Positions 11,122-43,048 of a stretch of DNA of 64,000 nucleotides are shown one piece after another. The DNA lies in the sequence record OQ067374.1. The stretch is one strand, 5' to 3'. The notes beneath the pieces were generated by a model that was given only the letters and a program-made list of their open reading frames with translations, did no database searches and had not been told where the DNA came from. The translations under genes were made by a program, and so were the position numbers. How positions within the stretch are numbered: position 1 is the stretch's first letter; the number at the start of each line of letters is the position of its first letter. This stretch comes from Escherichia phage a20.

Positions 11122-12222
11122 TTACGCTGTGAAGATTTTATCCCACATCGCAACAACTGCATCTCGGTTATACTTCTTCCATACTGCTTCAGCACGTTTA
11201 ACTCGAGCTTCGTATGTGTCAGTGAATTCTAATACAGCTTTTGTGTAAAGCGCAACTACTTCTTTCTTAGGAGTAGAGGAATCAATTTCTACACGCACAG
11301 TATCTGGGTCGTATTCGAATGTCGCATGAGGATAATCCTTAAAAACTAACTGGATTACAGGGACACCTTTAGAGATGGCTTCAATAGAACTATTCTCTAC
11401 CGTACCTGTGTCAGGACACGTATTAATAAGTGCTTTAGCCGTTTTAAGACGTTCCATGATTTCACTGTGTGGAGCATCAATAATAACAGGATATTTAGCT
11501 GGTGGTGCCCATTTACTAGGACAGTATCCTACACCATTTTCGCCTAGTGCTTTAATCGCTTCAAGAGCAACATCAGTACGACGCATTTTAGTGTCATAAC
11601 GTTGTGCACTAATAATCAGATCAGTCGCCGGAAGAACTTCAGGTTTCTCATTCAAACAAATAACCGGATAATCTTCGGCTTCAAACAACGGATTTGCTCG
11701 CCAATAATCATAATCGATTTTGTCAGTCAGACCTGAAGTCATATAACAATATTTGCGTTCAAATTCACGGAAGGCTTTAGTAGGAGCATAACTCTTACCG
11801 CCATTCTTATGAATTTGAATAGTCTGGTCCCAAATTTGAACAATGCCACGAGATACTGGTTCAAATGGTGTTGCCATAAAATTCTTATGAACTTTAGAGA
11901 GACCTGCGTCTTTAATTGCCTGAACGGTTAGTTTAGTCGGTTCCATAGTAACAACAAAATCGTATTCATGGATGCCGGCTAGTTCAACAATCTTACGAGC
12001 CATAGTATAACTCATACCTAGACTGAATTTAGTCAGATGACCAACAGGATGGTGTGTAACTTTCCAGTCACCAAACATGTCATTATCAAAGCCGATATAA
12101 TCAATATCGGCACCGATAGAAACTAAATATTTCAACACGTTCAAATGAACCGCTTCAAGACCACCTTGTACACGGTCAGGATTAAATGGGACTGCACGAG
12201 ATGGGATAAACATAACTTTCAT
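11122..12222 (-). CDS. putative GT-B fold glycosyltransferase (candidate DNA hmC sugar transferase)
   Basis: 366 aa; N-terminal MKVMFIP...GGLEAV...LVSIG and C-terminal ...ENSSIEAISKGVPVIQ motif typical of GT-B (GT4-like) enzymes; sits between rIIA.1 and gene 39 where T4 has gene 60/mobA. Confidence 0.55.
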   Translation of the reverse strand: MKVMFIPSRAVPFNPDRVQGGLEAVHLNVLKYLVSIGADIDYIGFDNDMFGDWKVTHHPVGHLTKFSLGMSYTMARKIVELAGIHEYDFVVTMEPTKLTVQAIKDAGLSKVHKNFMATPFEPVSRGIVQIWDQTIQIHKNGGKSYAPTKAFREFERKYCYMTSGLTDKIDYDYWRANPLFEAEDYPVICLNEKPEVLPATDLIISAQRYDTKMRRTDVALEAIKALGENGVGYCPSKWAPPAKYPVIIDAPHSEIMERLKTAKALINTCPDTGTVENSSIEAISKGVPVIQLVFKDYPHATFEYDPDTVRVEIDSSTPKKEVVALYTKAVLEFTDTYEARVKRAEAVWKKYNRDAVVAMWDKIFTA

Positions 12223-33045: not shown

Positions 33046-33594
33046 TTAACGAGCCCATTTGATGATTTCTGTAATCAAAACATTACGTTCGCTTGCATTA
33101 AATCCTATAACTTTGTTAGCACCATCATGATTAAGTAATTGATACGTTTGGATTTTGTTATGAATTGCAAACTCTTCAAAATGTGAAATGACTGTATTAA
33201 AACCGAATGAAGACAAAGTAATAAGGTCGTCTTCAAAACTTTCAGTCATTTCGTTACGTGTTAAAATAATTGTGAACACATCATGGTTTTGGCAAAGACG
33301 AACATAATCCTGTTCATAAACGTCAAGAACCGAGTCCGCATCTTGTCGAATACGTCCATAAACCCAGTTACTAATATATCCACGGTCTAACAGATAAATC
33401 TTAGTAGGGTCTAAATAATTCAACATCGTTTCGAAACAGCCAACTTCATTTCGAGACTTAACATCGAAACGTCCATCAACTGTTCGTTTAGGGAAATCAA
33501 TCTTTACATATCTTTCACTAATTTCCATTATGTCATTAATGAAAGTTGTTTTACCAGCATTATCCGGGCCATCTACTAAAATAATTTTAGCCAT
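33046..33594 (-). CDS. P-loop nucleotide/nucleoside monophosphate kinase-like protein (thymidylate-kinase-like)
   Basis: 182 aa; Walker A LVDGPDNAGKTT and LLDRGYIS (DR-Y motif) as in dNMP/thymidylate kinases. Confidence 0.55.
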   Translation of the reverse strand: MAKIILVDGPDNAGKTTFINDIMEISERYVKIDFPKRTVDGRFDVKSRNEVGCFETMLNYLDPTKIYLLDRGYISNWVYGRIRQDADSVLDVYEQDYVRLCQNHDVFTIILTRNEMTESFEDDLITLSSFGFNTVISHFEEFAIHNKIQTYQLLNHDGANKVIGFNASERNVLITEIIKWAR

Positions 33595-33595
33595 T

Positions 33596-34495
33596 TTATT
33601 CCTCGATTACGACATCTTCATATTTAGGTATATTATACGGTGAAGAAATTAAAGCATTAAAGTAGATGAACTCACCAAGACCTGGATGAAATACTTCTTC
33701 AGGATTTTCGAAATATTGAATCTTCGGACGTCCTTTAAGAATTTGATAGTATTCAGTTTTAGTTGGTTTAAAAATTCGAATCAACGCTTCTTCAGGATAC
33801 TTATTTCTGTCGAAGCTATTATTTGGATCGGTTATATAAAGCGGTTGGCCTAATTGAATTGCACATTCAACCACTTGTTCAAAACGATAGCATGGGTCAC
33901 TAATTCGAAATGGATGAAAAATACCATCTAGATGAATAGGAGCCAAATCACCTACAAGACGCTGCATGATGGAAGGACGTATAACTTTCTGCGTTACGAT
34001 AATCTTATTACCATCTGCACCTGCGTTAACCAGCACTTCTTTTTGACGTTCATTCAACACAGTAGTTTGAAGTGAACGATTAACCGACAACATATCGGTT
34101 TTTAAGAATTCGTCAATATAAAAACGTGGTTTATTAGGGTCTGCAGTGATATTGAAATTGAATTCTACATCAAAAGCGCCGTCATATCCGGTGATATCTG
34201 TGATTAGAAAATCACAATCATAATAAGCAATTAATGAATCAACCACAAATTCATTTTCAGTCCAGAAATATTTACGAGTGTTATACGCGTTATCTTTATA
34301 CCATAATGGAACAAACTTAAATTCTGGGAAAAGACGTTCACATTCTTTAATATCAGATGCATTACGTGGATATGTAATCACATCACCTGGATTAGCACGG
34401 TGCAAATGAAGTTGGAAGTTGCCATCCTTAAGGATAGCATACTGCCCAGTTTCATAAGACCGCATACTCAAAATAGGTACGCGGAAAATAGCCAT
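33596..34495 (-). CDS. protein of unassigned family occupying the T4 beta-glucosyltransferase position (candidate DNA-modifying transferase)
   Basis: 299 aa; no motif recognised; adjacent to the hydroxymethylase; T4 has bgt between uvsX and 42. Confidence 0.5.
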   Translation of the reverse strand: MAIFRVPILSMRSYETGQYAILKDGNFQLHLHRANPGDVITYPRNASDIKECERLFPEFKFVPLWYKDNAYNTRKYFWTENEFVVDSLIAYYDCDFLITDITGYDGAFDVEFNFNITADPNKPRFYIDEFLKTDMLSVNRSLQTTVLNERQKEVLVNAGADGNKIIVTQKVIRPSIMQRLVGDLAPIHLDGIFHPFRISDPCYRFEQVVECAIQLGQPLYITDPNNSFDRNKYPEEALIRIFKPTKTEYYQILKGRPKIQYFENPEEVFHPGLGEFIYFNALISSPYNIPKYEDVVIEE

Positions 34496-35211
34496 TAGTC
34501 AAGGAATCCTTTAACATAATCAAAATCACGTTCAAACACATGGGCACTTACCATGGTATGAGTATAATCACCAACTTCTACACCACATTCGTTAGCGATA
34601 TAATGAAGTAATTTTCCTTGGAGATAAAAATCCAACTGCATAACAACAGCACAGTTCTGAGAACGCATATGACAGTGGGTATAAAGCTTACCATCACGAA
34701 TATAATAAGTCACTGAGTCAGTACATGGATATTCAAGAGTTTCGTCCGAATCAAGCAAAGCCTGATCAGAACTTTCTAGAATTTGGAACACAACTCTTCG
34801 AGAGTTAGGCTTCTCTTTAAGTTCTTTTAGAAGAGCTGGTAATTGGGCCGCAATGCGAGGACCATAGAAAGTGTTGAAGTTCGCCGGCAAAACATCTGAT
34901 TTTGGTTTAGAAATAAATTTAGCGACATTAGGATATGCCTTAAACGCTTCTTCTGCGTTGGTACCACCAGAAATCATAAACTTCCAGAAGTCTTCGGCAT
35001 ATTCATAAGAGATGCGGTTAATACGTGGGTCAGTCATTTTGAATGATGATGGAGTGTCAACAACTACTGTCATAGACCCAATTTCATTACAACGTCCAAT
35101 ACGAGAATCAGTTACGAATTCCGGGTTTTCTAAAATTTCACGATTGACTGCTTTAAATGCGGTTTGAAAATCTGCGGCTTTGATATATTTCATTGTGTTA
35201 TGTTTTCCCAT
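34495..35211 (-). CDS. 42: thymidylate-synthase-superfamily pyrimidine hydroxymethylase (gp42-like, divergent)
   Basis: 238 aa; ...KPNSRRVVFQI...EYPCTDSVTYYIRDGKLYTHCHMRSQN... (catalytic Cys context and R-S-x-N/D region of TS/dCMP-HMase fold); position of T4 gene 42. Confidence 0.7.
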   Translation of the reverse strand: MGKHNTMKYIKAADFQTAFKAVNREILENPEFVTDSRIGRCNEIGSMTVVVDTPSSFKMTDPRINRISYEYAEDFWKFMISGGTNAEEAFKAYPNVAKFISKPKSDVLPANFNTFYGPRIAAQLPALLKELKEKPNSRRVVFQILESSDQALLDSDETLEYPCTDSVTYYIRDGKLYTHCHMRSQNCAVVMQLDFYLQGKLLHYIANECGVEVGDYTHTMVSAHVFERDFDYVKGFLD

Positions 35212-35253
35212 GTTTACCTCAATACAATTTATTATATACTCAATTCATAAAGC

Positions 35254-35493
35254 TTATTTGAATTTCTTAGCGATGTTGATATAACGTAAAGCTTCAGCAT
35301 CGATACTTCCAAGAACACTATGAAGAAATGCATCAGCGTAGTATTCCAATTGAACAGGTTCTTTAATCACTTTAGCCGCTTTGGTTCCAAACAGGCCCAT
35401 AAGGGCCTTTTTAAGAATTTGTTCATTAGTGTTCAGTTTCATAGTCAAAATCTCTTCATTAAGTTGGTGGTTAAAAGTTTTTCTAGAAATCAT
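35254..35493 (-). CDS. hypothetical small protein
   Basis: ORF track, 79 aa. Confidence 0.45.
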   Translation of the reverse strand: MISRKTFNHQLNEEILTMKLNTNEQILKKALMGLFGTKAAKVIKEPVQLEYYADAFLHSVLGSIDAEALRYINIAKKFK

Positions 35494-36650
35494 TCTGGGT
35501 ACCTCAAAGCGTCATCAGAGTTAGTTATATCAATAATAGATATAGAATTTTCTGATAACCCATTTTTAGATAACTGACGTTTATAATATCTTTCACAATA
35601 TGTACACGTCGTCCCGCAGATTTCATTAGCACAATCGAAATCTGGATGTCTGAACCACCTTTTTTCTAAAAAGCCATCTAACAAAGAGGTTTCAATATTT
35701 ACTGTATGTGAAAACTCAGTTTCGTTTTCAAGAGTGAAAATAGTCTCTAAAGGCTTCCACAGTTCTAACAAATTACCTTCAAACTTTTCAGAAGCGTATG
35801 CTTCAAGAACTTTCAAAATGTAGTCTGTGCTACCTGTACGTCCTGAAACTTTGAATTGAGTGATACCAATATCATTATAAAGTTTCAAATCTTGAGGACG
35901 AACAAAACGAGTTCTCAACCAGTTAAATGGGTCTGTATCACGAGCTTTAATGCAGTGTTGCATTGGATATCCGTTTAAGGATTTAGCATCATCAGCTGTA
36001 ACATCAGTACTATGGAAAATATAGCAAGAGTCACGATAGCTACAATGTGTTGTATACCCTTTACCAGCATTAGAACAGAACTCATTTACAAGAACTTCAA
36101 ATATTATATTGTTCTTATTGCAAAACTCTGCTGCACGCTTCAGGAAAGAAACTGAACGGTTCTTATGAATTCCACAGCAGACCTTTTTGATATTATATTG
36201 GTCATGCAAGTATTTGATTTGAGTTACAGCATCGACATGTAGAATTGTTGAAACTTCAATCTCAATGTCTTTATTGACTTCACGAACAATTTCCATAACA
36301 ACAGGGTTAGCGATAGTAATACGCCATACGCCTATTGACCAAAGATACTGAACATAATCCTGAATAGCTTTCTTCTTCCACTCAACTAGTTCTCTTTTTG
36401 AACCAGGATTTATCGTGTTGAGTGTATAGTTAAAGCAAATACCTAATTCGTTACAACGTTTAACGTAATCTTCTAACATCTTTTTGTCAACGTCAGGAAG
36501 CCTAAAATCAGGTCTGGCTGCTACAAAAGCCATTTCTCTTGTAGAGCCGTATACTTCGTTTATCAAGCTATTAGGATAAGTTTTATTGAGCTCTACGATT
36601 TTATCAAGAAGAGCTAAATCAAAATTCGTTCCAATTTTAAAAGTATTCAT
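35490..36650 (-). CDS. Cys-rich putative Fe-S enzyme of unassigned family
   Basis: 386 aa; clusters KKVCCGIH, EFCSNAGKGYTTHCSYRDSCY and C-terminal DCANEICGTTCTYCERYY (contains a CxxxCxxC spacing). Confidence 0.5.
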   Translation of the reverse strand: MNTFKIGTNFDLALLDKIVELNKTYPNSLINEVYGSTREMAFVAARPDFRLPDVDKKMLEDYVKRCNELGICFNYTLNTINPGSKRELVEWKKKAIQDYVQYLWSIGVWRITIANPVVMEIVREVNKDIEIEVSTILHVDAVTQIKYLHDQYNIKKVCCGIHKNRSVSFLKRAAEFCNKNNIIFEVLVNEFCSNAGKGYTTHCSYRDSCYIFHSTDVTADDAKSLNGYPMQHCIKARDTDPFNWLRTRFVRPQDLKLYNDIGITQFKVSGRTGSTDYILKVLEAYASEKFEGNLLELWKPLETIFTLENETEFSHTVNIETSLLDGFLEKRWFRHPDFDCANEICGTTCTYCERYYKRQLSKNGLSENSISIIDITNSDDALRYPE

Positions 36651-36707
36651 TTTTTTTGCATCTCACGTTAATTGATGCGATGGTTTTTGCAGGTCTTACT
36701 TAAATTA

Positions 36708-37097
36708 TTATAGATTCGGTTTATATGATTTAAATGTTTCGAATTCGCCTTTATTCATAAGAGCTTTGAATTCGTCAGGACGCATAGCTTTGTCGTCGAT
36801 AATCCAATCATATACTGGTTTATGTGTTAGCAAATTATGGTACTTCAAACCAATGTTTTCCAAGTTCTGAATCAGACTTGGGAGAATGTCAATTGCTATA
36901 CGTCCAGGACCTACTGACTTCATACCGCGAGCAGTGTAAAGCGTTATGGTATGCCCTGCATCATACAGAGCATTAATAGCAGTCACCATTTCGACGTCTG
37001 GTTTGAAGTTCACGTAATCACGATTGTTATTCCACTCTGTTATACAATCATCGACGTCCACGCAAAGATGTAATGGTTTCATAGCAATATCCTTCAA
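36708..37097 (-). CDS. small HAD-superfamily phosphatase
   Basis: 129 aa; motif I LCVDVDDCIT (DxDx[T/V]), ITLYTAR, and K...IIDD; start may be the ATG 15 nt downstream. Confidence 0.6.
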   Translation of the reverse strand: MKDIAMKPLHLCVDVDDCITEWNNNRDYVNFKPDVEMVTAINALYDAGHTITLYTARGMKSVGPGRIAIDILPSLIQNLENIGLKYHNLLTHKPVYDWIIDDKAMRPDEFKALMNKGEFETFKSYKPNL

Positions 37098-37809
37098 TAG
37101 AATTTTTAATATTATCAGCTATACGCTTTCTAGGAATACCCGTTTTCTTTTCAGCTATCCTAAGAGATTCATAGTAATTTTCGTTTATTTTAACAAATTT
37201 TTGAGACTTGTGAGCATTTTTGCTTTCGTCCTGATATCGATAATTAAGATATTTAGGCGATTTTACTCTCTTTTGAATCGTGGCAGAAGATATACCCAAA
37301 TCTTTAGCCGCTTCCCGACAGGATTCATAATATTTGCCATCTACATTAATCTTTAGACCATGTAATGCAGGTTTACCATACCTCCTGTGCTTTTCTTTAC
37401 CCCTAGCTATAGATTCAGCTGACAAAGTTTTACCCCATCTTGGGTTTTTATCACCAACTAAACGTCCTTTATTTGCCTTAGAAATTTTATCCTTGGACCT
37501 TTGGGATAACCCGTCAGAACCGCCTTCGCCACCAGTTTTAAGATTGTAATAATTTGGGTCTTTAACTATGTCTAATGTTATTAGAGCCTTTTCAGCTATT
37601 TTTAATTCTTCTCTCGAGCTATGGTAGGAAATGATTTCTTTAAGAAAATTTTCCTTCCCGTATTTCCTTTCAGCCTTTTTATATAATTTACCAGAACCTT
37701 TATATAAATCTAAAGGCTCGGCTTCTTCAGCCGAGTGCATTCCTAAATAAACTTTACCGTTTATAAGATTAGTAGTTTTGTAGAGATAATGTATCAAATT
37801 CGTTCCCAT
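37048..37809 (-). CDS. GIY-YIG homing endonuclease (Seg-like)
   Basis: 253 aa; N-terminal HYLYKTTNLINGKVYLGMHS...YKGSG (GIY-YIG module), basic DNA-binding C-terminal region; overlaps both neighbours. Confidence 0.8.
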   Translation of the reverse strand: MGTNLIHYLYKTTNLINGKVYLGMHSAEEAEPLDLYKGSGKLYKKAERKYGKENFLKEIISYHSSREELKIAEKALITLDIVKDPNYYNLKTGGEGGSDGLSQRSKDKISKANKGRLVGDKNPRWGKTLSAESIARGKEKHRRYGKPALHGLKINVDGKYYESCREAAKDLGISSATIQKRVKSPKYLNYRYQDESKNAHKSQKFVKINENYYESLRIAEKKTGIPRKRIADNIKNSIEGYCYETITSLRGRR

Positions 37810-39479
37810 TGATGAGTGATATCGCCACCGATTGGACGATAGGAAACACCAGTTTCTTTATCAGTTAGTACCCATTTACCAGGATTTTTTGTAATCAGAG
37901 TAGCCGTTACAGGTTCTGCTACGTCATAACTAATAGAGCCGTCTTGAAGTACACGGCCCATATTACGTAATTGCTTAGTCAGAAGTTCCATACCTTTATA
38001 ATATGCGGCTACCGCTTTAAGTGGATTATTCTTGAAATAACCACCTAATGCAATCCAGATAATTGCCACTGCCAAATGATGATACTCGTTAAACGAACTC
38101 ATCTTTCCATATTTGTAAACTAATGGATTGATGTTAATAGTCACATTACAAGTTGTTTCATCAATAGTAAACTGTCCCCAGGTCGGATTAGCATTGAATT
38201 CATCATAACCTGAAACAGCATAAAGCACTTTAGCTTCATCATACAATTTTGGCCCGTAAATCTTGGTTTCGCCAAAATATCCACGAGGGTCGATAAACTT
38301 AACTTCGCCGTTATCAGTAATCATAGTATTACTGAAGTTCGGGTCACCATGAATAACAGAGTACTGTCCCTGAGAACGGTTATGATAACGAATAAGATGT
38401 TCTAAAGCTTGTTTCAGCATTGGCTTCAGACGTCCAATCTTAGTGTAGTTCACATGTGTGATTTTACCAAATGAATCAATCAATGGTTGAATGCTTTCAC
38501 AACGATCAATAACTTTCGTATAGAATTCTTTAGTGAAATCACGACGAACAGTTTCAGGACTTACAAAATAAGTGTCTGTGCTGAATTTCAGTGCATCTAA
38601 AATTGTATCAACAATTTGTGGACGAGCAAGACTTGATTTGGATTTAATATATTCAAATGCCGGCTTACCTTTAATGCGTTCCATTTCAAAGTTATTTTCA
38701 TTAACAGAAACTAACTGAGGGACTGAATCTGATTTCACTTTCAAATACCACGAAATCTCATCTTTCTGAAGAGCTCGGCCCTGTTCGGTTAATGCGAATT
38801 TAGTTACAGTTTCTTCACCGATTTCAACTGCATTAAAACTACGATTAAGTTCACGAACTTCATGAGCTTTTTCAAGTTTAGGCATATCACCTAAATCAAT
38901 TAGATTCATAAGCTCTGATTTATTGAATGCGCCGCTGTAAAGGAATTCTACGAAATCACGTCCTTTGCAGTATTCATGAATTTCTTCATCAGTAGAACCC
39001 ATATAGAATTCCCAGTCTTTGAACTGATAAATTCCTACAACATTACCACCTGTTGAACCTACGTTAGTGATATTTTCACCGTCGAAATTATATCGACATT
39101 CGTCGCCCTTAACATAGATTGCGTTAACATTCCAAGACCATGAACCAAAATCGGGAATAATATCACACCAGTTAACAATTACATTATGGCCGTCTAAATC
39201 TTTGTGTAATTTAGCAAGAGCATAAGCAGATCCATACGCTTCATCAACTGTACGAATAGTCACATTGAACCCTTCTTGCTCACAATAAGCTCGAACAGTT
39301 TCAGCAAATTTTGAATGAACTACTACAATAATTTCATCTGCGCCTAGGTCAGAATAAATTGTATACAAATTGCTCAGAATAGTGTCTTGTTTATAGTTAA
39401 CAAGCACCTTAGGAATATGGTGAGTAATTGGATATAAACGAGTTGCCAGTCCAGCACCAAGAATAACAGCTTTTTTCAT
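37794..39479 (-). CDS. bifunctional sugar-1-phosphate nucleotidyltransferase (N-terminal) / APH-ChoK-type kinase (C-terminal)
   Basis: 561 aa; N-term MKKAVILGAGLATRLYPIT...PKVLV (G-x-G-x-x-R-L nucleotidyltransferase signature, LicC/RmlA-like); C-term HGDPNFSNTMIT...VKFIDPRGY (Brenner HxDxxxxN and DxxG of aminoglycoside/choline kinase fold). Confidence 0.7.
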   Translation of the reverse strand: MKKAVILGAGLATRLYPITHHIPKVLVNYKQDTILSNLYTIYSDLGADEIIVVVHSKFAETVRAYCEQEGFNVTIRTVDEAYGSAYALAKLHKDLDGHNVIVNWCDIIPDFGSWSWNVNAIYVKGDECRYNFDGENITNVGSTGGNVVGIYQFKDWEFYMGSTDEEIHEYCKGRDFVEFLYSGAFNKSELMNLIDLGDMPKLEKAHEVRELNRSFNAVEIGEETVTKFALTEQGRALQKDEISWYLKVKSDSVPQLVSVNENNFEMERIKGKPAFEYIKSKSSLARPQIVDTILDALKFSTDTYFVSPETVRRDFTKEFYTKVIDRCESIQPLIDSFGKITHVNYTKIGRLKPMLKQALEHLIRYHNRSQGQYSVIHGDPNFSNTMITDNGEVKFIDPRGYFGETKIYGPKLYDEAKVLYAVSGYDEFNANPTWGQFTIDETTCNVTININPLVYKYGKMSSFNEYHHLAVAIIWIALGGYFKNNPLKAVAAYYKGMELLTKQLRNMGRVLQDGSISYDVAEPVTATLITKNPGKWVLTDKETGVSYRPIGGDITHQWERI

Positions 39480-39520
39480 GTTGTGGTCCTCATTGGTAAG
39501 TAGGAGTATTGTACACTATT

Positions 39521-39664
39521 CTAGTTAAAGCATTCATACTTTGCTTGTAGTCCAATCATAATCCATCCAATTACAAGTGTTGGAATCATTACCGGAGCCG
39601 TTAAGCTCCAGTAGATAGTCATGACAAGCATCAATAGTAAAAGTCCTATTGCTATTGCTTTCAT
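39521..39664 (-). CDS. small hydrophobic membrane peptide (47 aa) between the sugar-isomerase gene and the fused kinase gene
   Basis: Hand-translated MKAIAIGLLLLMLVMTIYWSLTAPVMIPTLVIGWIMIGLQAKYECFN; TAATG overlap with SIS gene stop; imm-like position. Confidence 0.4.
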   Translation of the reverse strand: MKAIAIGLLLLMLVMTIYWSLTAPVMIPTLVIGWIMIGLQAKYECFN

Positions 39665-40296
39665 TATTCGCCTCGTAACATGGCACCTAGTGCACCACCA
39701 GGGTGGAACTTAAGGAAATCATTAGAGGTAAATCCACGTTCAGACGAAAGGTTGATAGCAAACGTATCGATAAGCGCTAACAACAATGTAGTGGACATAG
39801 TCGGAGCCAGAGAATTCTCATCAACCTCTACTGCGATGCCTGTACAGAAAGAGTAATCAAAAAGGGCTTCATTTTCTTGTGGAATGTCTGGGTTACAATG
39901 CAACAGAATCTGTTTGACGTTCGGACGAATCATTTTAAGATGCTTAGCCACGCCTATCATTTCTTCAGTTTTACCAGAACGACTAATATGAATCAACACA
40001 TCATTAGGCGCAATGAATCCTGCATCACCGTGAGAATAATGCCCAGTGTTCAAGTACATACTCGGGATACCTAGTGAAGCAAAAGTCTCGGAAGCTTTAG
40101 TTGCGATATTAGCATTCTTACCAACACCTGTAATAATTACTCGGCTTTCATAATTACTAAGTCCCGGGCGTCGAAGAGTTTCTAGAATAGCATTATAACG
40201 AGCAGGGTTTTGACTAATTACTTTGGCCATAGCGGCCAAAGAAGAAGCTTGTTTTATGATTGCGTCAATAGCGATAGTAATAGGAGTAGTTTTCAT
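39664..40296 (-). CDS. single-domain SIS sugar-phosphate isomerase, KdsD/GutQ-type (arabinose-5-phosphate isomerase-like)
   Basis: 210 aa; VIITGVGKNANIATKASETFASLGIPSMYLN...SHGDAGFIAPNDVLIHISRSGKTEE...LAPTMSTTLLLAL...GFTSNDFLKFHPGGALG closely parallels KdsD core motifs; lacks CBS domains. Confidence 0.8.
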   Translation of the reverse strand: MKTTPITIAIDAIIKQASSLAAMAKVISQNPARYNAILETLRRPGLSNYESRVIITGVGKNANIATKASETFASLGIPSMYLNTGHYSHGDAGFIAPNDVLIHISRSGKTEEMIGVAKHLKMIRPNVKQILLHCNPDIPQENEALFDYSFCTGIAVEVDENSLAPTMSTTLLLALIDTFAINLSSERGFTSNDFLKFHPGGALGAMLRGE

Positions 40297-40336
40297 ATTT
40301 CTCTCATTTAATTAGTTTACCGTCCATGGCATTATA

Positions 40337-43048
40337 TCAAAAATCGAACATATCGAACAGAGATGCTTTCTTCTCGTAATCGAGTTTCGCTGCTGATGTG
40401 AATCCTTCAAGTGGTTTAATAAATGTCTTCTCAAGGAGAACAGTGTAGTCCATCCAATGAAGTACGTCGTCTTTAATTAAATCTGTGATTTCAGTGCCAG
40501 AAGGCCATGCGATACATTTATCACCGAATGGGTTTCCTTCACGTAAAGGCAGAACATATACTTTTTCACCTTCTACAACTTGCGGTGCATCGATATTACC
40601 TTTGATAGCCCGGTTATATGTCAGAATTCCACGAATATGGAACGGACATTTGGGACCAGGGAATCCACCTACGTCATATTTAGCAATGTTATTCGCAGAA
40701 GATACCGACGCGATGCTAATATAATTCAATTGGCGGAATTCTTTTTCAAACTCTTTAAAATATTCTTGTAATGATTCTTCACCTTCTTGAAGCATACGAC
40801 GAATACATTCTTTAAGAGCTTTCTGTACTGCTTTAGGAGTCGAAGATTTCTGTGTTTCGAGACCCATGATTTTAAGCTTAGGTTCAGCGTATCTGGTTCC
40901 TTCCATATCCCACACGTTTAATGCATAACGTTTCTTACCAGTCCAGAATCCACCAATACCTTTAGAACCGAGCGGAGGACCAGCGATAGCTTCTCGGTCC
41001 ATGAACATCAAATGTTGCTTATTATTCATGTATTCGCACATTTCACGGAAACCTCTATCAATAGCAGGTTCCATACGTTCACGAGCGAACTTATCTAAGA
41101 AGTCTACCCAATGGTTGGTATCACGGAATTTAGATTCACCAACCTTATCGATAATTTTATCAGCAGATACGTAAATAGAGTCTGTATCACCATATAGAAC
41201 GAAAGCTTCACCTTCTGTACCACAAACTTCATTCAGATATTCATTAACTTTACGTTCAATCCACTGTAAAGCCATTTGACCAAATGTTGTGATTGCAGTA
41301 GCATTACGCAAATCATAATAACGGAACCAAACGTTGCCAAGTGCACCATAAAGTGAGTTGATAAGCAATTTACGGTTAATCTGTGCAGTCATACCTGCAA
41401 CTTCAGTACGTTGAGCTCTAAACAACATTTCATTAAGAGATTTAGCAGACAACTTTTTAATCTTTTCTTTAATCTCATCACTGAAGTCGAAACGATAATC
41501 AACATCTAATGGTTCGTCAACAGAAAGATTAGGATTATGCAATGCCTCTTTAATTATTTCACCATTACGTTGAGCTGCAAGCATGTAACCTTTATGTTCT
41601 TTACGTTGATTAAAGACCTTAGTGATTTCAGTTGGAACTACACCATCACGGTCTTTATAATACATCATGCCGTTAGGAGAGCAACTGTACACATCTGAAG
41701 GACGTTCAGCGATTGCGTTAATATAATCATGCAGTGGAGCTACTTTAAACGTTCCTGCTATTGTTTCCGGGCTAATATTCACTTGGCGAATAATACTTGG
41801 ATACAGAGATGTAAGGTCGAAACTCATTACATATTTGTATCGATTTGGAATAGGTTCCTTAACAAAAGCGCCAGGATAAGGTTGAACCGGGTGAGAACGA
41901 CCTTGTGGAATCACCTTGTTCTGCTCTTTAAGGCTATTAAAAATAATAGCATCCCATGTTTTAATTGGACTGAACACAGATTGAATCTGAATTTTAGCAT
42001 AATAACCCATGTCCAAGCTCAAGTTAATGAACTGGCGTTTAGCATCAATTTGCAATACACGATATACGTCGATGATGTTATAGCTTATATATCGTTGATG
42101 ATTACTTTCGCGAAGTTTAGAAATAGGACCGTCATATTTCAGTTTACCAACGTTCAATTCAAATTCTGAAATGTAATCCAGAGAATACGACGGTTGATTG
42201 GTAAAAGAGAATTTTTTGTAAAGGTCAATGTAATCAAGAACAGAGATACCGAACAATGTAATGATTTCACGAGAACCATACATGTTTTCGATAACTTTAA
42301 CACGAGTTTTACGATGCGGTGATAAACGTTTCGCAGTAGATTCGCCAAAAATATTCTTGATTCGGTTATACACATATGGAATATCAAATGACTCAACGTT
42401 CCATCCAGTCAAAATGACAGGAGTTTTCTGTTGCCAGAAGTTGAGATATTCCATCAACAATTCTTTTTCGTTATCGAACGGCATATAAATGATTTTATCG
42501 ATAATTTCAGATGGAACTTCATCACCGCCTTGTTCTTGAAGCTTAGCAGCGATTTCAATAGACCATTCTTCTACATTACCATACGGAGAATTCAATAGAT
42601 CAAATACGTAGAACCTGTCGTCAATTGAGTCATAATGGGTGATAGCATCAATCGGATGTTTTGCTTGTGACGGCTCAGGGAACCCATCCGGAGATGTTAC
42701 TTCGATGTCGAAGTTAGCCACACGAATTTTTGTATGGTCGTATTTGATTTCATAGTTATAAGTGTCAGACAAATACGCCAATTTGAAATCGTCCATGCCA
42801 AGTGCTTCAAGTCCGATATCTTCCATGCGTTTAATCCATTGGGAGGCATCACGCATATTAGCGAACAACTTACGAGTACACGGTTTACCGTAGATATCGA
42901 AATATTTCGTAGCCTGACTTTCTGGACAATGAGCAAACAGTGATGGTTTATATTCTACTTCACGAGTACGTTCACGGCCATTAGAATCGATGTAACGTTC
43001 AAAAATTGAATCACCAATCTGTTCAACCGTTAAGTAAAATTCTTTCAT
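40337..43048 (-). CDS. 43: family-B DNA polymerase with 3'-5' exonuclease (gp43), RB69-type
   Basis: 903 aa; exo motifs FDIEV / YNIIDV, polymerase motifs DxxSLYPS, K(x3)NSxYG, YGDTDS; N-terminus MKEFYLTVEQIGDSIFERYIDSNGRERTREV. Confidence 0.97.
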   Translation of the reverse strand: MKEFYLTVEQIGDSIFERYIDSNGRERTREVEYKPSLFAHCPESQATKYFDIYGKPCTRKLFANMRDASQWIKRMEDIGLEALGMDDFKLAYLSDTYNYEIKYDHTKIRVANFDIEVTSPDGFPEPSQAKHPIDAITHYDSIDDRFYVFDLLNSPYGNVEEWSIEIAAKLQEQGGDEVPSEIIDKIIYMPFDNEKELLMEYLNFWQQKTPVILTGWNVESFDIPYVYNRIKNIFGESTAKRLSPHRKTRVKVIENMYGSREIITLFGISVLDYIDLYKKFSFTNQPSYSLDYISEFELNVGKLKYDGPISKLRESNHQRYISYNIIDVYRVLQIDAKRQFINLSLDMGYYAKIQIQSVFSPIKTWDAIIFNSLKEQNKVIPQGRSHPVQPYPGAFVKEPIPNRYKYVMSFDLTSLYPSIIRQVNISPETIAGTFKVAPLHDYINAIAERPSDVYSCSPNGMMYYKDRDGVVPTEITKVFNQRKEHKGYMLAAQRNGEIIKEALHNPNLSVDEPLDVDYRFDFSDEIKEKIKKLSAKSLNEMLFRAQRTEVAGMTAQINRKLLINSLYGALGNVWFRYYDLRNATAITTFGQMALQWIERKVNEYLNEVCGTEGEAFVLYGDTDSIYVSADKIIDKVGESKFRDTNHWVDFLDKFARERMEPAIDRGFREMCEYMNNKQHLMFMDREAIAGPPLGSKGIGGFWTGKKRYALNVWDMEGTRYAEPKLKIMGLETQKSSTPKAVQKALKECIRRMLQEGEESLQEYFKEFEKEFRQLNYISIASVSSANNIAKYDVGGFPGPKCPFHIRGILTYNRAIKGNIDAPQVVEGEKVYVLPLREGNPFGDKCIAWPSGTEITDLIKDDVLHWMDYTVLLEKTFIKPLEGFTSAAKLDYEKKASLFDMFDF

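What the first reader, a model, noticed from the sequence alone, without database searches (positions are those of the whole stretch)
39664..40296. Host-like KdsD/GutQ-type SIS isomerase without CBS domains encoded by the phage
The motifs GVGKxxxIAxKxxxTxAS, SHGDxG, ISxSGxTxE, LAPTxSTT and HPGGALG align closely with bacterial arabinose-5-phosphate isomerases. Bacterial KdsD normally feeds Kdo/LPS synthesis; a truncated copy in a phage, directly upstream of a nucleotide-sugar-activating enzyme, suggests diversion of pentose-phosphate-pathway carbon into a phage-specific sugar donor.
Basis: partly seen in the sequence, partly recalled or inferred. Interest (0 to 1): 0.7.

Follow-up and report, generated by a model that had tools for sequence, protein, structure and literature searches.

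The report
Phage arabinose-5-phosphate isomerase for DNA arabinosylation

Summary
A 210-aa ORF on the minus strand at 39664..40296 carries all five quoted motifs. It is a single SIS domain with no CBS pair. Its best matches by sequence and by predicted fold are arabinose-5-phosphate isomerases: E. coli KdsD, E. coli CFT073 c3406 and the B. fragilis enzyme. No GmhA match appears.

The window is an RB69-like Mosigvirus. The protein equals RB69 gp55 (ORF055c) except for one missing C-terminal residue.

The gene heads a conserved module: isomerase, bifunctional sugar kinase/nucleotidyltransferase (AfhE-like), HAD phosphatase (AfhF-like), ThyA-like 5-hydroxy-dCMP synthase, and glycosyltransferases. 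Published work (Thomas 2018; Lee et al., NAR 2026, which cites He 2026 and Mahler 2025) already assigns this gene to Ru5P-to-A5P conversion. That step feeds UDP-D-arabinofuranose, which arabinosylates 5-hydroxycytosine in the phage DNA.

Two corrections apply:
- The protein is not a "truncated host copy". It is only about 35% identical to KdsD, belongs to an old phage clade, and natural single-domain isomerases exist.
- Related phages (Dhakavirus, Marfavirus) run the same module without this gene, so it looks like a flux booster.

Direct enzymology of the phage isomerase was not found in the papers I could read.

The parts
39664..40296 (-). Single-domain SIS arabinose-5-phosphate isomerase gene (210 aa; homolog of RB69 gp55/ORF055c). 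This is the finding itself.
   Evidence: ORF. Motifs. Pfam SIS. NCBIfam KpsF/GutQ/KdsD. PHROG 5670. PDB isomerase hits. AlphaFold model with pLDDT 95.8, whose top Foldseek hits are 2xhz, 5uqi and 3etn. Matches RB69p055 at every residue up to its end, where it stops one residue earlier; tblastn reports 100% identity over aa 18-210.
37794..39479 (-). Bifunctional sugar-1-phosphate nucleotidyltransferase (N-terminal) plus kinase-like (C-terminal) protein of 561 aa. Homolog of RB69 ORF53_52c and analogous to AfhE.
   Evidence: Pfam NTP_transferase at aa 3-99, with weak kinase-family hits at aa 308-409. NCBIfam sugar-1-P nucleotidylyltransferases. PHROG 4098 over its full length. The literature assigns A5P 1-kinase plus UDP-arabinose pyrophosphorylase activity to AfhE of phage HY126, as cited in PMC13326640.
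36708..37082 (-). HAD-type phosphatase of 124 aa counted from ATG 37082. Homolog of RB69 gp51 and analogous to AfhF.
   Evidence: NCBIfam TIGR01689 capsule biosynthesis phosphatase, 1e-13. PHROG 1238. 96.7% identical to RB69p051 from aa 8 onward. Role from PMC13326640.
35490..36650 (-). U32 'peptidase'-family protein of 386 aa, homolog of RB69 gp50. It sits in the module but its role is unknown.
   Evidence: Pfam Peptidase_U32, 7e-11. Weak UbiU hit. PHROG 5757. 99.5% identical to RB69p050. Present in Marfa but absent from the DLP3 cluster.
34495..35211 (-). Thymidylate-synthase homolog, the 5-hydroxy-dCMP synthase (homolog of RB69 gp48).
   Evidence: Pfam Thymidylat_synt, 2e-15. 99.2% identical to RB69p048. 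RB69p048 was shown experimentally to make 5hodCMP (PMC13326640).
33596..34495 (-). Candidate DNA arabinosyltransferase 1 (homolog of RB69 gp46:47).
   Evidence: PHROG 3891 over its full length. No Pfam hit. Annotated as a glycosyltransferase in NRG-P0074. Assignment from PMC13326640 Table 1.
33046..33594 (-). Thymidylate-kinase-like nucleotide kinase (homolog of RB69 gp45).
   Evidence: PHROG 761. 98.9% identical to RB69p045. PMC13326640 Table 1.
11122..12222 (-). Second candidate arabinosyltransferase (homolog of RB69 ORF003c/gp3), located apart from the main module.
   Evidence: tblastn with RB69p003: 98.9% identity over 366 aa at 12222..11125. Role proposed in PMC6024577 and PMC13326640.

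Best explanation
The gene encodes a CBS-less, single-domain arabinose-5-phosphate isomerase. It converts host D-ribulose-5-phosphate from the pentose-phosphate pathway into D-arabinose-5-phosphate. With O5 phosphorylated, that sugar can cyclise only as a furanose.

The next steps are carried out by the neighbouring genes. The adjacent 561-aa bifunctional enzyme phosphorylates C1. The HAD phosphatase removes the 5-phosphate. The N-terminal nucleotidyltransferase domain of the bifunctional enzyme then makes UDP-D-arabinofuranose. Phage glycosyltransferases transfer one or two arabinofuranosyl units onto 5-hydroxycytosine, which is made as 5-hydroxy-dCMP by the neighbouring ThyA homolog and incorporated in place of cytosine. 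The modified DNA resists restriction enzymes.

The phage copy most likely boosts A5P supply and uncouples it from the small, Kdo-dedicated host pool, rather than being strictly required.

What is shown here: family, fold, conserved catalytic residues, synteny. What is shown in the literature: D-Araf on 5hoC in RB69 DNA, the 5hodCMP synthase activity, and AfhE/AfhF activities in a related phage. What is inferred: the isomerase activity of this phage protein and its flux-boosting role.
For: 1. Family. NCBIfam KpsF/GutQ 2e-32 and KdsD 7e-31; other SIS families score 1e-6 or worse. The PDB sequence search returns only isomerase-type chains. The AlphaFold model (pLDDT 95.8) matches 2xhz (KdsD SIS domain), 5uqi (c3406 with A5P bound), 3etn and 3fxa at E 1e-13 to 8e-11. 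Other SIS proteins start at 1e-7, and no GmhA appears in the top 50.

2. Active site. The alignment to 2xhz maps KdsD K59/H88/E111/E152/H193 onto K60/H89/E112/E157/H198. The functional role of those KdsD residues is from my own knowledge. All five are invariant in 118 phage-clade proteins and nearly invariant in 136 other representatives.

3. Context. The order isomerase, kinase/nucleotidyltransferase, HAD, ThyA-like, glycosyltransferase, kinase is conserved from this window to Acinetobacter phage DLP3, at 59% isomerase identity. In Sphingomonas phage PAU the isomerase lies three genes upstream of a 576-aa ORF (gp215). Thomas 2018 lists a 24%-identity ORF53_52c match in PAU.

4. Literature. 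RB69 gp55, identical to this protein, is proposed to convert Ru5P to Araf5P. The sugar on RB69 DNA is D-arabinofuranose on 5-hydroxycytosine. AfhE and AfhF of phage HY126 convert A5P to UDP-arabinose (PMC13326640; PMC6024577).

5. Demand (inference). The window has 37% GC, giving about 62,000 cytosines per 168-kb genome. Multiplied by one or two arabinoses and by the burst size, this is comparable to or larger than a host cell's whole Kdo requirement.
Against: No direct enzymatic assay of a phage-encoded isomerase was found in the papers I could read. PMC13326640 says 'we propose'. He et al. 2026 and Mahler et al. 2025 are not held in the library.

NCBIfam scores (113 bits) are below the curated full-length cut-offs (204-505 bits), because the CBS half of those models is missing.

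The gene is not universal in the pathway. AfhE-like genes occur in 368 phage records and the isomerase in 275. Dhakavirus VR5 and Marfavirus Marfa carry the module between gene 43 and uvsX without any SIS gene. Host KdsD/GutQ can therefore evidently supply A5P.
Confidence: 0.87

Rival explanations
1. The protein is a SIS isomerase with a different substrate. It might be a GmhA-like sedoheptulose-7-phosphate isomerase, or an isomerase producing another pentose or hexose phosphate, so the module would make a sugar donor other than arabinose.
For: The module's logic (SIS isomerase, bifunctional kinase/nucleotidyltransferase, HAD phosphatase) mirrors the GmhA-HldE-GmhB ADP-heptose route (own knowledge). 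Public annotations and PHROG 1238 call the neighbouring HAD protein 'phosphoheptose isomerase'. A related module in Shewanella phage Thanatos has been discussed in terms of xylose (PMC12838424).
Against: No GmhA family appears at E<=0.01 in NCBIfam, no GmhA chain at E<=0.001 in the PDB sequence search, and none in the top 50 fold matches. All five residues that align with the KdsD active site are conserved. Chemical analysis of RB69 DNA found D-arabinofuranose (PMC13326640).
Confidence: 0.05
2. The isomerase serves the host envelope rather than the DNA. It would feed Kdo/LPS or capsule synthesis during infection, as KdsD and KpsF do, for example to keep the envelope intact or to alter receptors.
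For: All characterised bacterial members of the family feed Kdo or capsule pathways. The neighbouring HAD protein's best NCBIfam hit is a 'capsule biosynthesis phosphatase'.
Against: The window has no kdsA/kdsB/kdsC-like partners next to the gene. A true bacterial kdsD sits in a kdsD-kdsC-lptA-lptB neighbourhood, alongside an unnamed conserved gene that I take to be lptC. The phage gene instead sits in the DNA-modification module next to the ThyA-like 5hodCMP synthase and glycosyltransferases, a synteny conserved at 59% isomerase identity. It is placed in the replication gene cluster downstream of gene 43.
Confidence: 0.04
3. The protein is a non-catalytic or vestigial SIS domain, acting as a sugar-phosphate sensor like RpiR/MurR-type domains. 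It would be redundant with host KdsD/GutQ and have no real metabolic role.
For: Related phage lineages do without it. SIS domains of regulators form the second tier of fold matches.
Against: Thirty-one columns are invariant across 44 proteins that go down to 41% identity, and they include all five residues that align with the KdsD active site. The gene is kept in 275 phage records across several genera. There is no DNA-binding domain.
Confidence: 0.03

Closest known systems
RB69 gp55 (RB69p055 / ORF055c), assigned as arabinose-5-phosphate isomerase in the arabinosyl-5-hydroxycytosine pathway (Thomas et al. 2018, PMC6024577; Lee et al. 2026, PMC13326640)
   Same: The sequence matches residue for residue, and the position is the same: downstream of gene 43 and upstream of ORF53_52c. 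The proposed function is the same.
   Different: The window's copy lacks the last residue: Q211 is replaced by a stop codon, creating a TAATG overlap with the next small ORF. The window's module also carries a GIY-YIG homing endonuclease that RB69 lacks.
Bacterial single-domain arabinose-5-phosphate isomerases: E. coli CFT073 c3406 (PDB 5UQI, with A5P bound) and the Bacteroides fragilis enzyme (PDB 3ETN)
   Same: About 200 aa, SIS domain only, no CBS pair. Both are among the four PDB sequence hits (2.7e-25 and 4e-23) and among the top fold hits. The residues that align with the KdsD active site are shared.
   Different: Only 34-37% identity. The bacterial enzymes sit in capsule or pathogenicity-island contexts, whereas the phage enzyme sits in a DNA-modification module. 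Descent from this particular lineage could not be shown: NJ bootstrap support is below 15%.
E. coli KdsD / GutQ / KpsF (SIS + tandem CBS; Kdo and capsule biosynthesis)
   Same: Same catalytic domain and reaction. K59/H88/E111/E152/H193 align with K60/H89/E112/E157/H198. The fold match to 2xhz has E 1e-13 and TM 0.89 when normalised by target length.
   Different: No CBS pair, so curated full-length cut-offs are not reached. About 36% identity. The genomic context differs: a bacterial kdsD lies with kdsC and the lpt genes. The product feeds UDP-Araf rather than Kdo.
ADP-heptose pathway GmhA-HldE-GmhB (own knowledge)
   Same: Same pathway logic: a SIS ketose-phosphate isomerase, then a bifunctional anomeric kinase/nucleotidyltransferase, then a HAD phosphatase that removes the distal phosphate.
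   Different: The isomerase here is KdsD-type, not GmhA-type. The substrate is a C5 sugar, not a C7 sugar. According to the literature the nucleotide is UDP.
T4 hydroxymethylcytosine glucosylation (alpha- and beta-glucosyltransferases using host UDP-glucose)
   Same: A T-even-type phage replaces cytosine with a hydroxylated derivative made by a ThyA homolog, then glycosylates it on the DNA to evade restriction.
   Different: T4 takes its sugar nucleotide from the host. This phage encodes its own sugar-nucleotide synthesis, starting with the isomerase. The base is 5-hydroxy-C rather than 5-hydroxymethyl-C (PMC13326640).

Membership tests
KpsF/GutQ/KdsD-type arabinose-5-phosphate isomerase (catalytic SIS domain) | SIS-domain fold | tested here: met
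   Pfam PF01380, 1e-10, covering 6-130 of 131 model positions. AlphaFold model with pLDDT 95.8 and pTM 0.91. Foldseek match to 2xhz with TM 0.89 when normalised by target length.
KpsF/GutQ/KdsD-type arabinose-5-phosphate isomerase (catalytic SIS domain) | Closer to this isomerase family than to other SIS families (GmhA, GlmS, MurQ, RpiR/HexR, HxlB) | tested here: met
   NCBIfam: KpsF/GutQ 112.9 bits and KdsD 107.6 bits, against at most 27.5 bits for any other family. PDB sequence hits are isomerase-type only. In the fold search the isomerases score 1e-13 to 8e-11 and all other proteins 1e-7 or worse.
KpsF/GutQ/KdsD-type arabinose-5-phosphate isomerase (catalytic SIS domain) | Active-site residues equivalent to E. 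coli KdsD K59, H88, E111, E152 and H193 (their functional role is from my own knowledge of the KdsD mutagenesis and structure literature) | tested here: met
   The alignment to 2xhz and 5uqi gives K60, H89, E112, E157 and H198. All are invariant in 118 of 118 phage-clade proteins and in alignment A1.
KpsF/GutQ/KdsD-type arabinose-5-phosphate isomerase (catalytic SIS domain) | Ser/Thr-rich phosphate-binding segments (ISxSGxT and PTxSTT) | tested here: met
   ISRSGKT at aa 104-110 and PTMSTT at aa 165-170. S105, S107 and T110 are invariant in the 118 phage-clade proteins, and T166, S168 and T169 are nearly so.
KpsF/GutQ/KdsD-type arabinose-5-phosphate isomerase (catalytic SIS domain) | Catalyses the interconversion of Ru5P and A5P | not testable with these tools
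   This needs an enzyme assay or complementation of a kdsD gutQ mutant. No assay of a phage isomerase was found in the accessible papers.
Canonical full-length KdsD/GutQ (NCBIfam equivalogs NF008141 and NF008581; TIGR00393) | C-terminal tandem CBS domains, and a score above the curated cut-off | tested here: not met
   No CBS hit. The protein is 210 aa and matches only positions 2-153 of the 268-position TIGR00393 model. It scores 112.9 bits against a cut-off of 203.7, and 107.6 bits against 505. It is therefore not a KdsD or GutQ equivalog.
Single-domain (CBS-less) arabinose-5-phosphate isomerases such as c3406 and the B. fragilis enzyme | A SIS-only architecture of about 190-220 aa, with significant homology to c3406 and the B. 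fragilis enzyme | tested here: met
   210 aa. 3etn 2.7e-25 and 5uqi 4.1e-23. 5uqi fold match with TM 0.80/0.89. After the phage clade, the next six representatives by score are all 193-243 aa.
Single-domain (CBS-less) arabinose-5-phosphate isomerases such as c3406 and the B. fragilis enzyme | Common descent with that bacterial lineage rather than independent loss of CBS | tested here: inconclusive
   In an NJ tree of 149 SIS domains with 200 bootstraps, nodes joining the phage core to any outside group have at most 15% support. Single-domain and CBS-bearing proteins are interleaved.
   No GmhA model at E<=0.01, no GmhA chain at E<=0.001, and none among the top 50 fold matches.
Phage arabinosyl-5-hydroxycytosine DNA hypermodification module (RB69/DLP3/HY126 type) | ThyA-homolog 5hodCMP synthase, AfhE-like kinase/nucleotidyltransferase, AfhF-like HAD phosphatase and DNA glycosyltransferases encoded together | tested here: met
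   All are present at 33046..39479 and 11122..12222, at 96.7-99.5% identity to the RB69 proteins I compared (p003, p045, p048, p050, p051). ORF53_52c and gp46:47 were not compared at protein level; the 5-kb region holding ORF53_52c is 97.9% identical to RB69 in DNA. The same order occurs in DLP3.
Phage arabinosyl-5-hydroxycytosine DNA hypermodification module (RB69/DLP3/HY126 type) | Virion DNA actually carries arabinosylated 5-hydroxycytosine | not testable with these tools
   This was shown chemically for RB69 and DLP3 (PMC13326640) and for the Mosigvirus NP (PMC13390438). For this exact phage it is inferred from near-identity.

The most novel reading that the evidence does not exclude
The CBS-less phage isomerase may be a deregulated flux valve. 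On this reading it escapes the feedback and regulatory control that limits host KdsD. Its patchy distribution would then set how heavily the DNA is arabinosylated (mono- versus di- or tri-arabinose), or how independent the phage is of the host's kdsD/gutQ expression state. The gene is present in Mosigvirus, Karamvirus-like, Winklervirus-like and Acinetobacter T4-like phages. It is absent from Dhakavirus and Marfavirus, which otherwise carry the same module. If true, the gene would be a host-range or defence-evasion determinant rather than a redundant metabolic copy.
Probability: 0.25. Interest if true: 0.35.

Novelty: already known. Interest (0 to 1): 0.15.

Why it matters
Arabinosylated 5-hydroxycytosine completely replaces cytosine in these phages. 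It changes their sensitivity to restriction enzymes, CRISPR-Cas and type IV restriction systems, which matters for phage therapy and phage engineering. The isomerase is the entry point that couples host central carbon metabolism (the pentose-phosphate pathway) to this DNA modification. It is unusual for a phage to make its own sugar nucleotide instead of borrowing host UDP-glucose as T4 does. Since all of this has been recognised in print since 2018 and refined in 2025-2026, the finding adds no new biology. What remains open is the direct enzymology of the phage isomerase and why some lineages do without it.

Tried and rejected
1. Donor lineage. I searched 1.84 billion representatives, cut out the SIS regions of 148 hits and built an NJ tree with 200 bootstraps. 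The phage core groups loosely, with 23-41% support. Nothing outside it is resolved (15% or less), so no donor lineage can be named. The most that can be said is that the highest-scoring non-phage-clade relatives are single-domain in length.

2. Rosetta-stone fusions. I looked at long hits for a SIS domain fused to pathway partners. P0126 and P0127 are SIS + GIY-YIG endonuclease fusions or read-throughs. P0262 and P0243 are SIS + CBS with N-terminal extensions. P0157 is a ROK-SIS-aldolase protein. None links SIS to the AfhE-like enzyme. The Butyrivibrio fusion reported by Thomas 2018 was not recovered among the top 150.

3. Dedicated promoter or terminator. The scan found 16 promoter-like sites against 19.9 expected by chance, and none placed upstream of the gene. 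Co-transcription with gene 43 is the default assumption and is untested.

4. GmhA rival: rejected.

5. Hidden or split CBS domain downstream: rejected. The gap holds only a 47-aa hydrophobic ORF.

6. Primary biochemical papers. He et al. 2026 (Nat Chem Biol) is not held under its DOI, and searches did not bring up Mahler et al. 2025. A DOI I recalled for the B. fragilis structure paper was not held either, and searches for isomerase structure and active-site papers found none. The roles of the catalytic residues therefore rest on my own knowledge plus the conservation measured here.

7. PDB sequence search for the U32 protein: no hit at E<=0.01.
Full report
**What is there.** The window is a T4-like phage genome segment. 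Around the finding lie gene 43 DNA polymerase (40337..43048), regA, 62 and 44, all on the minus strand. Megablast of 35400..40400 finds 193 phage records. The best are Escherichia phages BEU50 and NRG-P0074 (99.0% identity, full length). RB69 matches at 97.9% over 85% of the query. NRG-P0074 and RB69 are classified in genus Mosigvirus.

**The observation.** The flagged ORF is real and sits exactly at 39664..40296 on the minus strand, 210 aa. The protein matches RB69p055 at every residue except that a TAA stop replaces the last codon (Q211); tblastn reports 100% identity over aa 18-210.

**Family assignment.**
- Pfam finds one SIS domain (1e-10) and nothing else.
- NCBIfam ranks KpsF/GutQ (2e-32, 112.9 bits), KdsD (7e-31) and GutQ (9e-23) far above any other SIS family, which score 27.5 bits or less. 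These scores are below the curated full-length cut-offs because only the SIS half of the models is matched.
- PHROGs has a dedicated family for this protein: phrog_5670 'arabinose 5-phosphate isomerase', 9e-116 over its full length.
- The PDB sequence search returns only four chains, all isomerase-type: 3etn (B. fragilis, single domain, 2.7e-25), 5uqi (4e-23), 2xhz (E. coli KdsD SIS domain, 3.5e-19) and 3fxa.
- An AlphaFold2 model built from 44 homologs is confident (pLDDT 95.8, pTM 0.91). Foldseek against the PDB puts 2xhz, 5uqi ('E. coli CFT073 c3406 in complex with A5P'), 3etn and 3fxa first, at E 1e-13 to 8e-11. A clear gap follows before RpiR/NanR/MurR/MurQ-type SIS proteins at 1e-7 or worse.
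- GmhA does not appear in any of these lists.

**Active site.** Using the alignment to 2xhz, the KdsD residues K59, H88, E111, E152 and H193 correspond to K60, H89, E112, E157 and H198. Their implication in catalysis comes from my own knowledge of the KdsD literature. All five are invariant in 118 phage-clade homologs and nearly invariant in 136 more distant representatives. They are among the 31 invariant columns of alignment A1, whose members go down to 41% identity. This argues against a degenerate or purely regulatory SIS domain.

**'Host-like' and 'truncated'.** Identity is 34-37% to the three best-matching solved isomerases and 37% to a genuine Acinetobacter chromosomal KdsD. That KdsD sits in a kdsD-kdsC-lptA-lptB neighbourhood, alongside an unnamed conserved gene that I take to be lptC.

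The 120 closest proteins in a 5.8-billion-protein search are about 200-235 aa apart from a few fragments. Those that carry a source name come almost entirely from T4-like phages, and many of the rest lie on phage-sized contigs of about 165-175 kb. In the phage collection, 275 records carry a homolog: Mosigvirus at 94-100% identity, Enterobacter, Serratia, Yersinia, Erwinia and Pectobacterium phages at 70-75%, Acinetobacter phages at about 58-60%, and Sphingomonas phage PAU at 30%.

In the exhaustive representative search there are 14 hits below 1e-30. Twelve of them are full-length representatives that I take to be the phage clade. Then comes a drop to 118 bits or less. There the first six proteins are 193-243 aa, followed by a mix of single-domain and roughly 320-aa CBS-bearing proteins.

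So this is an old phage lineage of naturally single-domain isomerases, not a recent truncation of a host kdsD. An NJ bootstrap analysis could not resolve the sister group (15% support or less).

**Context and mechanism.** Reading downstream on the minus strand, the genes are:
- the isomerase (39664..40296);
- a 47-aa hydrophobic ORF (39521..39664);
- a 561-aa protein with an N-terminal sugar-1-phosphate nucleotidyltransferase domain and a C-terminal kinase-like domain (37794..39479);
- a GIY-YIG homing endonuclease (37048..37809);
- a HAD phosphatase (36708..37082);
- a U32-family protein (35490..36650);
- a 79-aa ORF;
- a thymidylate-synthase homolog (34495..35211);
- a glycosyltransferase candidate (33596..34495);
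- a thymidylate-kinase-like protein (33046..33594);
- then uvsX.

A second glycosyltransferase, the RB69 ORF003c homolog, lies at 11122..12222. The order isomerase, kinase/nucleotidyltransferase, HAD, ThyA-like, glycosyltransferase, kinase recurs in Acinetobacter phage DLP3.

**Published model.** The literature supplies the biochemistry.
- Thomas et al. 2018 found arabinose on RB69 DNA. They already singled out ORF055c and ORF53_52c as candidates for UDP-arabinose synthesis (PMC6024577).
- Lee et al. 2026 showed that the modified base is mono- or di-D-arabinofuranosyl-5-hydroxycytosine, and that the ThyA homolog makes 5-hydroxy-dCMP.
- They cite He et al. 2026 for AfhE (A5P 1-kinase plus UDP-arabinose pyrophosphorylase) and AfhF (Mg-dependent phosphatase) activities in phage HY126 (PMC13326640).

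The D-configuration and furanose ring of the DNA-bound sugar are what an A5P origin predicts (inference). The pathway logic parallels GmhA-HldE-GmhB in ADP-heptose synthesis (own knowledge), although the isomerase itself is KdsD-type.

AfhE-like proteins occur in 368 phage records, but the isomerase in only 275. All Escherichia, Shigella and Enterobacteria records with the isomerase fall in the >=80% identity bands, which I take to be Mosigvirus. The roughly 40 extra Escherichia records and at least 22 extra Klebsiella records with an AfhE-like gene have no isomerase hit. In Dhakavirus VR5 and Marfavirus Marfa, the gene 43 to uvsX interval contains the AfhE-like, small HAD-sized, P-loop kinase, ThyA-like and glycosyltransferase-sized genes (plus U32 in Marfa), but no SIS gene. 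The phage isomerase is therefore an accessory to the pathway.

The simplest reading is that it raises A5P supply and frees it from dependence on the host. At 37% GC, about 62,000 cytosines per genome must be arabinosylated. Over a whole burst this is of the order of a cell's entire Kdo requirement (inference).

**Verdict.** The identical protein is annotated as arabinose 5-phosphate isomerase in many GenBank records. It has its own PHROG family. It has been assigned this role in print since 2018, with the pathway refined in 2025-2026. What remains untested in the sources I could read is the enzymatic activity of the phage protein itself and the reason for its patchy distribution.

Noticed in passing
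window 37048..37809 (-): A 253-aa GIY-YIG / I-TevI-like homing endonuclease (Pfam I-TevI_DNA-bd, NUMOD1, NUMOD3, SegE_GIY-YIG) is inserted between the AfhE-like and HAD phosphatase genes and overlaps both ends. It is absent from RB69 and most relatives (85% coverage in two pieces). It is present in NRG-P0074 and, judging by full-length coverage, in BEU50 and JM17. The first 7 residues of the HAD protein differ from RB69 at the insertion junction.
   Followed up: partly
P0126 (369 aa) and P0127 (274 aa): Two metagenomic members of the phage isomerase clade are called as SIS + SegE-type GIY-YIG endonuclease fusions. This suggests that homing endonucleases repeatedly land next to this gene. They could also be read-through gene calls.
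   Followed up: partly
window 39521..39664 (-): A 47-aa strongly hydrophobic ORF (MKAIAIGLLLLMLVMTIYWSLTAPVMIPTLVIGWIMIGLQAKYECFN) starts in a TAATG overlap with the isomerase stop codon. It matches phrog_3610 over its full length (8e-27) and is annotated in NRG-P0074. RB69 annotates a shorter ORF054c here. Its function is unknown. Dhakavirus VR5 has the imm gene at the equivalent position.
   Followed up: partly
window 35490..36650 (-): The U32 'peptidase'-family protein (homolog of RB69 gp50) lies inside the modification module and has no assigned role; PMC13326640 lists it only as a putative 'sugar or heterocycle reductase'. From my own knowledge, the U32 family includes O2-independent hydroxylases: RlhA for 5-hydroxycytidine in 23S rRNA, TrhP, and UbiU/UbiV. 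A weak UbiU hit is seen. RB69's 5hodCMP synthase activity was probed with 18O2 labelling (PMC13326640), so I take it to be O2-dependent. An anaerobic route to 5-hydroxycytosine through this protein is therefore an untested idea. It is present in Marfa and absent from DLP3. There is no PDB sequence hit.
   Followed up: partly
L006 (Dhakavirus VR5) and L007 (Marfavirus Marfa), gene 43 to uvsX interval: These phages keep the AfhE-like, HAD-sized, P-loop kinase, ThyA-like and glycosyltransferase-sized genes but have no SIS isomerase. Across the collection, 368 records have the AfhE-like gene and 275 have the isomerase. Which sugar these phages put on their DNA, and whether they rely on host KdsD/GutQ, was not determined.
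   Followed up: partly
public records matching window 36708..39479: Annotation errors propagate in relatives. The HAD phosphatase is widely named 'phosphoheptose isomerase', including by PHROG 1238. The AfhE-like enzyme is named 'dCMP deaminase' in NRG-P0074 and 'GlmU' elsewhere. The U32 protein is named 'peptidase' or 'collagenase-like protease'. RB69's own record still splits ORF052c/053c and ORF046c/047c because of sequencing errors.
   Followed up: no
L005 (CAKLQF020000001.1, 'Acinetobacter phage MD-2021a', 378,590 bp): This record in the phage collection looks like bacterial chromosome rather than phage. It carries cysS, tRNA-Gly, kdsD, kdsC, lptA, lptB and type I secretion genes. It was useful here as a genuine bacterial KdsD context.
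   Followed up: no
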